From NCBI GenBank assembly GCA_041649575.1, contig JBAZMW010000001.1, positions 150,001-182,000 on the forward strand: a stretch of 32,000 nucleotides of DNA, in the 5' to 3' direction. A program made the position numbers and the translations under genes. Below are positions 16,916 through 18,423 of the stretch, piece by piece; position 1 is the first letter of the stretch; the number at the start of each line of letters is the position of its first letter. Under the pieces are notes generated by a model. It had not been told where the DNA came from, ran no database searches, and saw only the letters and a list, made by a program, of their open reading frames with translations. The DNA comes from Patescibacteria group bacterium. Lineage in GTDB: Bacteria > Patescibacteriota > Patescibacteriia > 2-01-FULL-39-33.

Positions 16916-18321
16916 AAAATAAAAAAGTGACAGTCATGGGGCTGGGTTTATATGAAAATGGTAGCGGAATTTCGGCTACCCGTTTTTTGGTGGAGCAGGG
17001 CGCTCGGGTGACAGTGACCGATTTAAAGACCAGGGAACAACTGACTGATCAGGTAAAGCGACTGGGGTCGTTGGCTAGGAAAATAAAATTTGTTTTAGGT
17101 GAACATCGAGAGGAGGATTTTAAAAATATTGATTTACTTGTAAAAAATCCAGGCGTGCCCAACATTTCAAAATATTTGCGAATCGCTCGAGAAAATAAGA
17201 TTCCCATTGAGACGGATATCTCTTTGTTTTTTAAGCTGGTGCCGCGAGAAAGAATTATTGGCATCACCGGCACGCGCGGTAAAAGCACCACCACCAGTTT
17301 GATCTATGAAATAGTAAAACTGGCCGACAAAAACGCGGTTTTGGGCGGCAATATCACCAAGTCGCCGCTGGCGCAGATGATGGAAGTAAAAAAGGGAGGC
17401 ATGGTAGTGCTGGAGTTGTCTTCTTGGATGCTGGAAAGCTTAGAACCGCACAAAATGAGTCCGCAGCTGGCCATTTTTACCAATATTTACCCAGATCATT
17501 TAAATACTTACAAAAATATTGCCGAGTACGCGGCAGCCAAAGAAAATATTTTCCAGTGGCAGAACAAAGATGATTTAGTGGTGCTAAACCGCGATAATAG
17601 CTGGACCAGAAAAATGGGCGCTAAAGTTCCAGGCAAAAGGTTTTGGTTTTCCAAAAAATATTTTGCGGCAGAAAACGGAGTTTATTTGAAAGGAAAAGAT
17701 GTCTATTTTCGGCTCGCTGGCGAGGAAATAAAAGTCTTAAAAAAAGATGACATTCAAATTCTCGGTGAACATAATTTGGAAAATGTTTTGGCGGCGGTAG
17801 CCGCCGCTATGGCCTGGGGAATCAGGCCGGAAACTGTCAGGCGAGGTGTAAAAAGCTTCAAAGGCATTAGCGATCGGCTGGAATTTTTGAGAGAAATAAA
17901 AGGGGTAAAATATTATAATGATACCACCTCGACCACGCCAGAAGCGACGATGGCGGCCCTAAGGGCCTTAAGTTTAAAACCAAAAAGTAAAAGCTTAAAA
18001 GAAAAAAATATTATTTTGATAGGTGGAGGGTCGGATAAAGGGTTGAATTTTAAAGAATTGGCCAGGGAGATAAGAGATAGAGTAAAAAATTTAGTTTTAT
18101 TAAGGGGAAGTGGCAGTGAAAGACTGGCTAAAGAATTTTTAGCTTTAAGTTTTAAGTTTTCAGTTGTTGGCTCTATGGCTGATGCGGTTGGTTTGGCTAA
18201 AAGTTTTGCCAAGAGGGGAGATATTGTTTTGCTTTCTCCCGCCTGCGCTTCTTTTGGCATGTTTAATAATGAGCTTGATCGTGGCGCGCAGTTTAGGATG
18301 ATAGTTAGGAAGTTAAAGTGA
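16885..18321 (+). CDS. murD: UDP-N-acetylmuramoylalanine--D-glutamate ligase
   Basis: The ORF is 478 aa. It has an N-terminal Rossmann motif (KKVTVMGLGLYENGSG), a Mur-ligase P-loop (GITGTRGKSTTT) and a C-terminal LSPACASFGMFNN..RG..F typical of MurD. It ends with TGA at 18319-18321. Confidence 0.92.
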   Translation: MVEKRKDIYLKNKKVTVMGLGLYENGSGISATRFLVEQGARVTVTDLKTREQLTDQVKRLGSLARKIKFVLGEHREEDFKNIDLLVKNPGVPNISKYLRIARENKIPIETDISLFFKLVPRERIIGITGTRGKSTTTSLIYEIVKLADKNAVLGGNITKSPLAQMMEVKKGGMVVLELSSWMLESLEPHKMSPQLAIFTNIYPDHLNTYKNIAEYAAAKENIFQWQNKDDLVVLNRDNSWTRKMGAKVPGKRFWFSKKYFAAENGVYLKGKDVYFRLAGEEIKVLKKDDIQILGEHNLENVLAAVAAAMAWGIRPETVRRGVKSFKGISDRLEFLREIKGVKYYNDTTSTTPEATMAALRALSLKPKSKSLKEKNIILIGGGSDKGLNFKELAREIRDRVKNLVLLRGSGSERLAKEFLALSFKFSVVGSMADAVGLAKSFAKRGDIVLLSPACASFGMFNNELDRGAQFRMIVRKLK

Positions 18322-18339
18322 TGGCTTCGGCGAGGCAGG

Positions 18340-18423
18340 CCCGCCTGCGCCAGTTTTGGCATGTTCAATAATGAGTTCGACCGAGGCGCGCAGTTTAGGA
18401 TGATAATTGGTAAATTAAAATAA
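18340..18423 (+). pseudogene. Displaced second copy of the murD 3' end (last 27 codons plus stop)
   Basis: It is 84 nt long and I count 70/84 identities with 18238-18321. The offset is exactly 102 nt, so it is in frame behind the murD TGA. It encodes PACASFGMFNNEFDRGAQFRMIIGKLK*, against PACASFGMFNNELDRGAQFRMIVRKLK* in murD. Confidence 0.8.

What the first reader, a model, noticed from the sequence alone, without database searches (positions are those of the whole stretch)
18238..18423. In-frame tandem duplication of the murD 3' end with mostly synonymous divergence, at the border of a high-GC insertion
**The duplication.** The last 27 codons plus stop of murD (18238-18321) recur at 18340-18423. 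The two copies are separated by an 18-nt GC-rich filler (tggcttcggcgaggcagg). The offset is exactly 102 nt, so the second copy is in frame behind the murD TGA.

**The divergence.** I count 14 differences in 84 nt:
- Seven codons differ synonymously: GCT/GCC, TCT/AGT for Ser, TTT/TTC, GAT/GAC, CGT/CGA and AAG/AAA twice.
- Three changes are amino-acid replacements (L/F, V/I, R/G).
- The stop differs (TGA/TAA).

This pattern means both copies evolved under purifying selection as a MurD C-terminus in different lineages. It is not a recent replication slip.

**Context.** The distal copy abuts cassette D directly: cassette D's terminator T-run overlaps the copy's TAA.

**Interpretation.** This looks like the scar of a recombination event that used the murD 3' end as a homologous anchor. 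Homology-facilitated illegitimate recombination, or integration of an element carrying a replacement gene end, would both fit. It may therefore be a clue to how the high-GC cassettes move between related genomes. A less likely alternative is TGA readthrough, which would append a 34-residue tail repeating the C-terminal helix.
Basis: seen in the sequence. Interest (0 to 1): 0.78.

Follow-up and report, generated by a model that had tools for sequence, protein, structure and literature searches.

The report
Orphaned murD gene-end recombination scar
A candidate-phyla-radiation (Patescibacteria) bacterium carries a second, untranslated copy of the last 27 codons of its cell-wall gene murD just behind the real gene end. 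It is most likely a harmless scar of recombination between two related lineages, real but of an ordinary kind.

Summary
Positions 18238-18321 and 18340-18423 are 70/84 identical, 102 nt apart, with an 18-nt GC-rich filler between them.

- **Real, not an artefact.** Three different assemblies carry the sequence with 100% identity. The longest identical stretch between the copies is only 21 nt.
- **Divergence pattern.** There are 13 differences in the sense codons but only 3 amino-acid changes (simulation P<=6e-5; dS~0.75, dN~0.09). Both copies therefore diverged as working MurD ends in two related lineages and were joined recently.
- **Context.** Copy 2 runs directly into the terminator U-run of "cassette D", an antisense GC-rich unit with its own promoter. 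Five relatives have other antisense units in this slot whose terminator U-run meets the true murD stop in the same way. Copy 2 and cassette D are therefore one ancestral block, and the novel joint is at 18339/18340.
- **Relatives.** None of 158 related loci has the duplication or a cassette D homolog, and the closest relative has an empty slot.
- **Best explanation.** This is a one-sided homologous plus illegitimate recombination (HFIR or C-terminal-displacement type). Its direction is unresolved.

The kind is ordinary and the interest modest.

The parts
16885..18321 (+). murD (UDP-N-acetylmuramoyl-L-alanine--D-glutamate ligase). The intact, translated gene. The start is at 16885 or 16936.
   Evidence: A 478-aa ORF. 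The homolog search returned MurD with Pfam MurD-like_N, Mur_ligase_M and Mur_ligase_C domains, and the 461-aa version P0001 is 100% identical. The NCBI name is MFA5029272.1.
18238..18321 (+). Copy 1: the last 27 codons of murD plus the TGA stop (PACASFGMFNNELDRGAQFRMIVRKLK*). This is the translated copy.
   Evidence: It has L where all 39 listed relatives have F (NEFDRG). TGA is a stop in only 3 of 27 genes here, and murD is the only non-GC-rich gene that uses it.
18322..18339 (+). 18-nt GC-rich filler, tggcttcggcgaggcagg. This is DNA that lay downstream of the copy-1 lineage's murD. The novel joint is at its right end (18339/18340).
   Evidence: An ATG overlaps the TGA (TGATG, reading M-A-S-A-R-Q). 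In 23 of 39 tightly packed relatives a start codon (ATG, GTG or TTG) lies within a few bases of the murD stop, as expected for a coupled ftsW start. Alternatively, CGGCGAGG equals the left arm of cassette D's terminator at 18435-18442 (P about 0.015, post hoc).
18340..18423 (+). Copy 2: an orphaned, untranslated murD 3' fragment (PACASFGMFNNEFDRGAQFRMIIGKLK*) with a TAA stop.
   Evidence: It keeps the clade-conserved F and the GKLK tail of the closest homolog P0002. It has no in-frame start or RBS (sequence).
18422..18466 (-). Intrinsic terminator of cassette D. The hairpin lies at about 18431-18466 and the U-run at 18422-18429, overlapping copy 2's stop codon.
   Evidence: Fold of -24.2 kcal/mol, z=-4.43, with 0 of 200 shuffles as stable. 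Strong terminators end the slot units of L091, L087, L086, L018, L016 and L005, and the U-run meets the true murD stop in all but L005.
18424..18797 (-). Cassette D: a GC-rich (up to 0.68) antisense transcription unit of about 370 nt between murD and ftsW. It is an ORFan.
   Evidence: Composition. Whole-unit fold z=-2.85. No Rfam family. No Pfam match. The 62-aa called ORF matches only itself among 5.8 billion proteins. No phage, plasmid or viral match.
18617..18742 (-). Candidate 41-aa small ORF of cassette D (MHIQHRKGTH...), preceded by the RBS AAGGAGG at 18753-18759.
   Evidence: Short ORFs in similar positions with strong RBS occur in the slot units of L005 (MDIRGST...), L087 (MHHIRGST...) and L083. 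Coding status was not shown.
18804..18832 (-). Cassette D promoter: TTGACA, 17 nt, then the extended -10 TGcTAATAT.
   Evidence: The promoter scan scored 10 of 12 with a TG extension. The same architecture aligns in the units of L005, L087 and L083.
18868..18888 (.). 21-nt near-palindrome TTTTGTTTAAATTTAGACAAA upstream of ftsW, and upstream of cassette D's promoter in the opposite direction.
   Evidence: It is found twice in the window (7008-7028 and 18868-18888), against 0.01 expected by chance. The core CTAAATTTAG recurs upstream of ftsW in L091, L005 and L083, with a variant (CTAAATCTAG) in L087.
18935..20080 (+). ftsW, the next gene of the dcw cluster.
   Evidence: Pfam FTSW_RODA_SPOVE. 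It is 75% identical to FtsW of L003.

Best explanation
The 84-nt distal copy is a non-functional, orphaned murD 3' end left by recombination between two related but diverged lineages of this Patescibacteria (candidate phyla radiation, CPR) species group.

**The two blocks.** One block is murD through its TGA plus 18 nt of downstream DNA (up to 18339). The other block starts at codon 452 of a second murD allele and continues through its TAA into cassette D (from 18340). The two blocks meet at a single illegitimate joint at 18339/18340.

**The event.** The other end of the exchanged DNA was resolved by ordinary homologous recombination in the flanking dcw genes. This is how homology-facilitated illegitimate recombination (HFIR) works. 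The outcome is also that of 'C-terminal displacement' in rhs, CDI and T6SS loci, where an intact gene end is followed by a displaced orphan end.

**Shown.** Two alleles diverged under purifying selection. The juxtaposition is recent. The left boundary is abrupt. Copy 2 is contiguous with cassette D in the arrangement seen in relatives.

**Inferred.** The recombination mechanism, DNA uptake as the route, and the lack of any present function for copy 2 beyond supplying the last bases of cassette D's terminator U-tract.

**Not resolved.** Which block was resident. Either cassette D and copy 2 arrived together, or a foreign murD displaced the resident gene end.
For: - **Divergence.** 13 differences in the sense codons give only 3 amino-acid changes. 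P<=6e-5 under random substitution; dS about 0.75, dN about 0.09.
- **Relatedness.** Both copies share the lineage-specific RGAQFRMI, so they are alleles of close relatives.
- **Recency.** Copy 2 has no frameshift, stop or radical change.
- **Boundaries.** Homology begins exactly at 18238/18340, and the left flanks are unrelated.
- **Canonical block.** Copy 2's TAA is embedded in cassette D's terminator U-run. Six relatives have an antisense terminator next to murD, and in five the U-run meets the real murD stop.
- **Variable slot.** The gap ranges from -39 to +71 nt in relatives without a unit and from 233 to about 1010 nt in those with one.
- **Filler.** It looks like genuine downstream DNA of the other lineage. 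It has the TGATG coupling motif, and in 23 of 39 tightly packed relatives a start codon lies within a few bases of the murD stop. Alternatively, it shares an 8-mer with the terminator arm.
- **Assemblies.** Three assemblers agree.
- **Known mechanism.** HFIR and displacement of gene ends are documented (PMC3240628, PMC5361080, PMC2935791). Patescibacteria are naturally competent and carry out homologous recombination (PMC10633639, PMC12455944).
Against: - No parental haplotype or closer relative exists in the searched collections. The best non-self MurD is 70% identical. The anchor, the donor-recipient direction and microhomology at the joint therefore cannot be checked.
- Only 27 codons support the dS estimate, so its error is wide.
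- Codon-usage and GC3 comparisons did not discriminate which copy is native.
- No second scar was found beside the other GC-rich units of the window.
- Competence genes of this genome were not examined.
Confidence: 0.6

Rival explanations
1. This is the remnant of a site-specific integrative element that targets the murD 3' end and carries a replacement gene end. Copy 1 would be the element-supplied end (attL side) and copy 2 the displaced native end (attR side). The element body would later have been deleted down to 18 nt.
For: The first 11 nt of both copies are identical (CCCGCCTGCGC) and could serve as a crossover core. Copy 2 keeps the ancestral F and G, the TAA stop and the native terminator context, while copy 1 has derived L and R and an atypical TGA. 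From my own knowledge of integrative elements, not from a tool result: replacement of gene ends with mostly synonymous divergence is typical of elements that integrate into gene 3' ends.
Against: Only 18 nt lie between the copies. The Pfam scans of 20 window ORFs returned no integrase, recombinase or transposase. Cassette D is not flanked by the repeats. None of the slot units in relatives has a second murD end (tblastn with the 28-aa peptide at E<=10). The model also needs an extra and very precise internal deletion.
Confidence: 0.12
2. This is an intragenomic tandem duplication of about 102 nt, produced by slippage or unequal sister exchange, followed by divergence in place.
For: The arrangement is head-to-tail and in frame. 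The repeat unit may extend past the stop into CGGCGAGG.
Against: An untranslated copy should accumulate changes at random, of which about 70% would alter the protein. Simulation gives a mean of 9.2 amino-acid changes against 3 observed (P<=6e-5). Copy 2 retains clade-conserved residues. The TCT/AGT serine switch needs two substitutions through a non-synonymous intermediate, which implies long divergence.
Confidence: 0.05
3. This is an assembly or library artefact that joins two co-occurring strains.
For: The three assemblies may all derive from the same reads. The copies look like strain alleles.
Against: The sequence is identical in the JGI, MEGAHIT and Logan contigs. The longest identical stretch between the copies is 21 nt. 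From my own knowledge of assembler k-mer sizes, not from a tool result, that is too short for a graph assembler to confuse the copies, and the filler and both junctions would have to be present in reads. A collapsed strain bubble would not create an 18-nt novel filler.
Confidence: 0.05
4. Copy 2 is functional. It could be translated by TGA readthrough, giving a MurD with a 34-residue repeated tail. Alternatively, it could act as an RNA-level target or decoy for readthrough transcripts of cassette D.
For: The copy is in frame and intact. TGA is rare in this genome, at 3 of 27 stops.
Against: All conserved genes read through as full-length ORFs under code 11, and TGA also ends two GC-rich genes, so TGA is a stop. 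The linker WLRRGR has no homology. The junction hairpin is no more stable than shuffled sequence (z=-0.35). No relative has such a tail.
Confidence: 0.03

Closest known systems
Homology-facilitated illegitimate recombination (HFIR), described in Acinetobacter, Streptococcus pneumoniae, Pseudomonas stutzeri and E. coli (PMC3240628; references 41, 42 and 47 of PMC5361080)
   Same: One end of the incoming DNA is resolved by homology and the other by an illegitimate joint. Flanking donor sequence is trapped next to the recipient's own copy. The boundary is abrupt, with no recombinase signature.
   Different: Here the 'foreign' DNA is an allele from a close relative, so the trapped piece duplicates a housekeeping gene end. 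The anchor, the microhomology and the donor-recipient direction cannot be seen. Everything is inferred from a single genome, not from an experiment.
C-terminal displacement and orphan 3' ends in rhs, CDI and T6SS effector loci (PMC2935791, PMC5361080)
   Same: An intact gene is followed immediately by a displaced, promoterless 3' end of the same gene family. The arrangement is explained by recombination that is anchored in the conserved upstream part.
   Different: Those loci swap functionally different toxin tips together with immunity genes, and selection builds arrays of them. Here both ends encode nearly the same MurD C-terminus, there is one orphan only, and no selective benefit is apparent.
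Integrative elements that insert into the 3' end of a gene and carry a replacement end (attL/attR gene-end repeats). This comparison rests on my own knowledge, not on a paper read here.
   Same: Direct repeats of a gene's 3' end show mostly synonymous divergence. There is an identical stretch at the left edge of the repeat.
   Different: There is no element between the repeats, only 18 nt, and no integrase. The adjacent GC-rich unit lies outside the repeats.

Membership tests
HFIR-type recombination scar | Two juxtaposed blocks of different ancestry (alleles that diverged independently) | tested here: met
   Synonymous-biased divergence with P<=6e-5, dS about 0.75 and dN about 0.09. Both copies share lineage-specific residues.
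HFIR-type recombination scar | An abrupt illegitimate joint with no site-specific recombination signature (no target-site duplication, terminal inverted repeats or recombinase) | tested here: met
   Homology ends exactly at 18237/18238 and 18339/18340. The junction palindrome is no better than shuffled sequence. The Pfam scans of 20 window ORFs found no recombinase.
HFIR-type recombination scar | A homologous anchor on the opposite side, and microhomology at the illegitimate joint | not testable with these tools
   This needs the parental haplotypes. None exists in the searched collections.
HFIR-type recombination scar | The host is capable of DNA uptake and RecA-dependent recombination | not tested
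   Only the 32-kb window was examined. Competence is documented for other Patescibacteria (PMC10633639, PMC12455944).
Integrative element with a replacement gene end (att duplication) | An element body, with an integrase, lies between the two repeats | tested here: not met
   18 nt lie between the copies. The 20 window ORFs scanned against Pfam gave no integrase match.
Integrative element with a replacement gene end (att duplication) | An identical core shared by both repeats at the crossover point | tested here: inconclusive
   The 11 nt at the left edge are identical (CCCGCCTGCGC). This is also the most conserved MurD motif (SPACAS), so the identity is expected anyway.
Integrative element with a replacement gene end (att duplication) | The same target is used recurrently, with repeats flanking the inserts in relatives | tested here: not met
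   At least seven distinct relatives have units in the slot, but none has a second murD end.
rhs/CDI/T6SS C-terminal displacement array | An orphan 3' end of the same gene lies directly downstream of the intact gene | tested here: met
   Copy 2 lies 18 nt after the murD stop.
rhs/CDI/T6SS C-terminal displacement array | Variable toxic tips paired with immunity genes | tested here: not met
   Both ends encode the same MurD C-terminus (24 of 27 residues identical). No immunity-like ORF is present, and cassette D is an antisense ORFan.
Replication-slippage tandem duplication | Copies identical or diverging at random, since the untranslated copy is unconstrained | tested here: not met
   3 amino-acid changes observed against about 9.2 expected.

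The most novel reading that the evidence does not exclude
The murD-ftsW junction of this Patescibacteria clade may be a hot spot where antisense, GC-rich mini-genes, each with its own promoter and terminator, are exchanged between lineages. On this reading the orphan murD end is a hitch-hiking footprint. It would show that cassette D entered a previously cassette-free, translationally coupled murD-ftsW junction (the filler being the first 18 nt of the old ftsW, TGATG...) as one block with its neighbour's gene end. The route would be one-sided homologous recombination after DNA uptake. That would be a direct natural footprint of HFIR-mediated cassette gain in uncultivated CPR bacteria.
Probability: 0.3. 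Interest if true: 0.5.

Novelty: new member of a known kind. Interest (0 to 1): 0.3.

Why it matters
If the reading is right, this is a small, clean natural example of recombination between diverged lineages that leaves a gene-end orphan inside the most conserved operon (dcw) of an uncultivated Patescibacteria bacterium. It shows that allelic exchange at roughly 15-17% nucleotide divergence occurs in these organisms, and that it can carry a neighbouring non-homologous unit along with it.

Practically, the scar marks a breakpoint. It could be used to find parental haplotypes in the source metagenome.

It does not reveal a new mechanism or system. The broader pattern around it may be the more interesting lead: diverse antisense GC-rich units, each with a consensus promoter and a terminator butted against the murD stop, in several relatives.

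Tried and rejected
- **Rfam.** Searches of the window and of seven related loci at gathering threshold, plus a permissive search of 18200-19000, found no RNA family. There is no tRNA or tmRNA gene.
- **Homology of cassette D.** No Pfam match. It is an ORFan among 5.8 billion proteins. No phage, plasmid or IMG/VR match. No blastn match in 158 related loci.
- **Junction palindrome GCAGGCccGCCTGC as a hairpin or fold-back signature.** It is no more stable than shuffled sequence (z=-0.35), so I rejected it.
- **Local templated origin of the filler.** Only the 8-mer CGGCGAGG stands out (P about 0.015, post hoc). The rest are chance 6-mers.
- **Which copy is native, from codon usage and GC3.** The log-likelihood ratio is mixed (-1.0 under murD's own usage). 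murD's low GC3 is also seen in relatives, so this is inconclusive.
- **Phylogenetic incongruence across the breakpoint** (identity of MraY, MurD, FtsW, MurG and MurC to 40 relatives). L003 is closest or tied for closest for all except MurG and MurC, where it trails by 1-2 points. Relatives are too distant to reveal a switch.
- **Parental haplotypes.** I looked through the protein cluster and through exact-protein contig look-ups for MurD, FtsW and MraY. Only the same three contigs appear.
- **Other gene-end scars in the window.** A six-frame self-tblastn found none.
- **Alignment of slot units from relatives.** Only the promoters and a short ORF start (L005/L087) align. Common descent of the transcribed parts was not shown.
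Full report
**1.

Positions 18238-18321 and 18340-18423 match at 70 of 84 positions without gaps. The offset is 102 nt and the 18-nt filler is tggcttcggcgaggcagg. The repeat finder reports the pair as family D5.

The codon tally is exact. Seven codons differ synonymously, three are replacements (L/F, V/I, R/G), and the stop is TGA in one copy and TAA in the other. In a six-frame self-comparison of the whole window the pair scores E=1.4e-14. It is the only duplicated gene end in the 32 kb; all other hits are Ig-domain or FG-GAP repeats and paralogs. 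Left of the repeat the two contexts are unrelated, so homology starts abruptly at codon P452 of MurD.

**2. It is not an assembly artefact, as far as can be judged without reads.**

The 461-aa MurD product P0001 is on three contigs: the 244,907-bp JGI contig, a 126-kb ENA MEGAHIT contig, and a 9.7-kb Logan contig of run SRR8542065. The last two are 100% identical to the window over 7.4 and 6.3 kb, including the whole duplication. The longest identical run between the copies is 21 nt (differences listed). From my own knowledge of assembler k-mer sizes, that is too short for a graph assembler to confuse the copies, so the filler and both junctions should be present in reads. The assemblies may share reads, so read mapping is still the proper test.

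**3. Organism and gene.**

MurD's best matches are Patescibacteria (candidate phyla radiation, CPR), named Buchananbacteria or Falkowbacteria. The best non-self hit is only 70% identical, and NCBI names the protein MFA5029272.1 from a 'Patescibacteria group bacterium'. The window holds a dcw cluster: mraY, a lineage-specific ORF, murD, ftsW, murG, murC and murB.

**4. What the divergence says.**

Placing 13 random substitutions in the 81 sense nucleotides gives a mean of 9.2 amino-acid changes. Only 3 are observed (P<=6e-5). Nei-Gojobori estimates are dS about 0.75 and dN about 0.09.

Both copies carry A and M in RGAQFRMI, where all 39 listed relatives have other residues. They are therefore two alleles from closely related lineages, not distant homologs. 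Copy 2, the untranslated one, keeps the clade-invariant F of NEFDRG and the GKLK tail of the closest homolog. Copy 1, the translated one, has L and R. Copy 2 shows no frameshift, stop or radical change. Both copies thus evolved as working MurD ends and were juxtaposed recently. In-place divergence after a slip is rejected.

**5. Context: cassette D and the slot.**

Cassette D is a minus-strand unit made of the following parts:
- a near-consensus promoter, TTGACA-17-TGcTAATAT, at 18832-18804;
- an AAGGAGG ribosome-binding site and a possible 41-aa ORF;
- about 190 nt of GC-rich tail;
- a strong intrinsic terminator (-24.2 kcal/mol, z=-4.4) whose U-run overlaps copy 2's TAA.

It has no Rfam, Pfam, phage, plasmid or viral match, and its called ORF matches only itself among 5.8 billion proteins.

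I fetched 160 related loci. None has a second murD end or a cassette D homolog. In most, murD and ftsW are -39 to +71 nt apart, and the closest relative (L003/L004) has an 11-nt gap.

At least seven distinct relatives (L083, L005, L087, L018, L091, L016/L090 and L086) carry other units of 233 to about 1010 nt in this slot. These units also run on the minus strand, have TTGACA(A) promoters on the ftsW side and are mostly GC-enriched. In six of them the unit ends next to murD in a strong minus-strand terminator, and in five the U-run runs straight into the true murD stop (z from -3.0 to -6.4).

Copy 2 plus cassette D reproduces this canonical arrangement, and copy 1 plus filler does not. Copy 2 and cassette D are therefore one contiguous ancestral block. 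The novel joint is at 18339/18340.

**6. The filler.**

Two readings remain open.
- **(A) Orphaned 5' end of an ftsW that was translationally coupled to murD in the copy-1 lineage.** An ATG overlaps the stop (TGATG) and would read M-A-S-A-R-Q. In 23 of 39 tightly packed relatives a start codon (ATG, GTG or TTG) lies within a few bases of the murD stop, as expected for a coupled ftsW start. One of them (L045, TAATGCAGAGGCGCGG...) is equally GC-rich. Reading A implies that lineage had no unit in the slot, so cassette D was gained or lost in the event.
- **(B) Start of an allelic GC-rich unit.** CGGCGAGG is identical to the left arm of cassette D's terminator at a similar distance from the stop (P about 0.015, post hoc).

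The junction palindrome GCAGGCccGCCTGC is no better than shuffled sequence.

**7. Mechanism.**

A crossover within the shared murD end would have replaced it. Its duplication therefore shows that this side of the exchange was joined illegitimately, while the other side was presumably resolved by homology in murD or mraY (upstream) or in ftsW or murG (downstream).

That is the definition of homology-facilitated illegitimate recombination (PMC3240628; references 41, 42 and 47 in PMC5361080). The product has the same form as 'C-terminal displacement' in rhs and T6SS loci, where an intact gene is followed by an orphan 3' end (PMC2935791, PMC5361080). Natural competence and homologous recombination are documented in Patescibacteria (PMC10633639, PMC12455944).

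The direction is unresolved. In favour of copy 2 and cassette D being resident, with a foreign murD displacing the old end:
- TAA is the usual stop here, and TGA ends only murD and two GC-rich genes.
- Copy 2 keeps ancestral residues.
- A low-GC ORFan absent from all relatives sits just upstream of murD.

In favour of cassette gain:
- The closest relative has an empty slot.
- The filler carries the TGATG motif.

Codon usage, GC3 and identity profiles across the breakpoint did not discriminate. No parental haplotype exists in the collections.

**8. Rivals.**

- **Remnant integrative element with a replacement gene end.** This is conceivable, since the 11 nt at the left edge are identical. It fails on its defining features. 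Only 18 nt lie between the repeats, the Pfam scans found no integrase, cassette D lies outside the repeats, and relatives' units are not flanked by murD ends.
- **TGA readthrough.** This is unlikely. All conserved genes read as full-length ORFs under the standard bacterial code 11, and TGA also ends two other genes in the window, so TGA is a stop. No relative has such a tail.

**9. Verdict.**

The finding is real and well described. The core inference, a recombination scar between diverged alleles, is supported. The detail that the murD end served as the anchor needs correcting, and the link to cassette mobility remains circumstantial. The kind of event is known, and this is a new instance in an unusual organism and operon. 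Interest is modest (0.3). The recurrent antisense GC-rich units in the murD-ftsW slot are the more open question.

Noticed in passing
window 1290-6955 (minus strand): Three tandem GC-rich (0.55-0.62) monocistronic cassettes sit in a genome of about 43% GC. Each has a TTGACAA promoter, a 5' leader of 100-180 nt, an RBS and a terminator. They encode Ig-domain proteins of 413, 381 and 848 aa, and the start of the first reads like a signal peptide by eye. The Ig domain of the first matches Verrucomicrobia, Acidobacteria and Opitutaceae proteins at about 50% identity over only 21-30% of its length. This suggests cross-phylum acquisition.
   Followed up: partly
L083:5375-5935, L005:1680-2185, L087:5363-5800, L091:5399-5680, L086:4357-4545, L018:3176-3385, L016:5615-5860: Several relatives carry different, non-alignable antisense units between murD and ftsW. 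Each has a consensus promoter, and most a terminator whose U-run overlaps the murD stop. Four (the window, L005, L087 and L083) have a strong RBS and an ORF of 31-41 aa, and those of L005 and L087 share M[DH](H)IRGST. This could be an undescribed family of small RNA or small-protein genes.
   Followed up: partly
window 7008-7028 and 18868-18888: An exact 21-nt near-palindrome, TTTTGTTTAAATTTAGAYAAA, occurs twice, against 0.01 expected. Each copy lies 36-53 nt upstream of a GC-rich cassette's -35 box. The core CTAAATTTAG also lies upstream of ftsW in L091, L005 and L083, with a variant (CTAAATCTAG) in L087. It may be an operator or part of a promoter.
   Followed up: partly
window 15722-16915: A low-GC (0.34, GC3 0.29) ORF of 376-397 aa lies between mraY and murD. 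It has no Pfam match and no counterpart in the related loci I fetched. The mraY-murD gap ranges from -19 to 3523 nt among relatives.
   Followed up: partly
related loci, dcw junctions: In this clade all four junctions are interrupted in a lineage-specific way. The inserts reach 3.5 kb (mraY-murD), 1 kb (murD-ftsW), 1.1 kb (ftsW-murG) and 0.8 kb (murG-murC).
   Followed up: no
window 28429-28930 (+) and 29860-30370 (-): There are two more GC-rich (0.56-0.60) monocistronic ORFan units. One is 122 aa with a TTGACAA promoter, an AAGGAGG RBS, a TGA stop and a terminator. The other is 140 aa. Neither has a Pfam match.
   Followed up: no
window, all 27 ORFs judged genes: Stop codon usage is 16 TAA, 8 TAG and 3 TGA. 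TGA ends only murD (copy 1) and two GC-rich units.
   Followed up: yes
L083:5985-6290: A second insert in the same slot contains repeated GTCATCCCGA / TCGGGATGAC-type inverted motifs that look like a small MITE-like repeat element.
   Followed up: no
window 6962-7034: A 73-nt AT-rich palindrome (36-nt arms, 81% complementary) lies between the end of gene 7029-8306 and the cassette C promoter. It is probably a bidirectional terminator and includes the 21-nt motif.
   Followed up: no
window 17913-18446 (-): A 177-aa antisense ORF spans both murD-end copies, so its product contains an internal repeat. It starts inside cassette D's terminator and is probably spurious.
   Followed up: no
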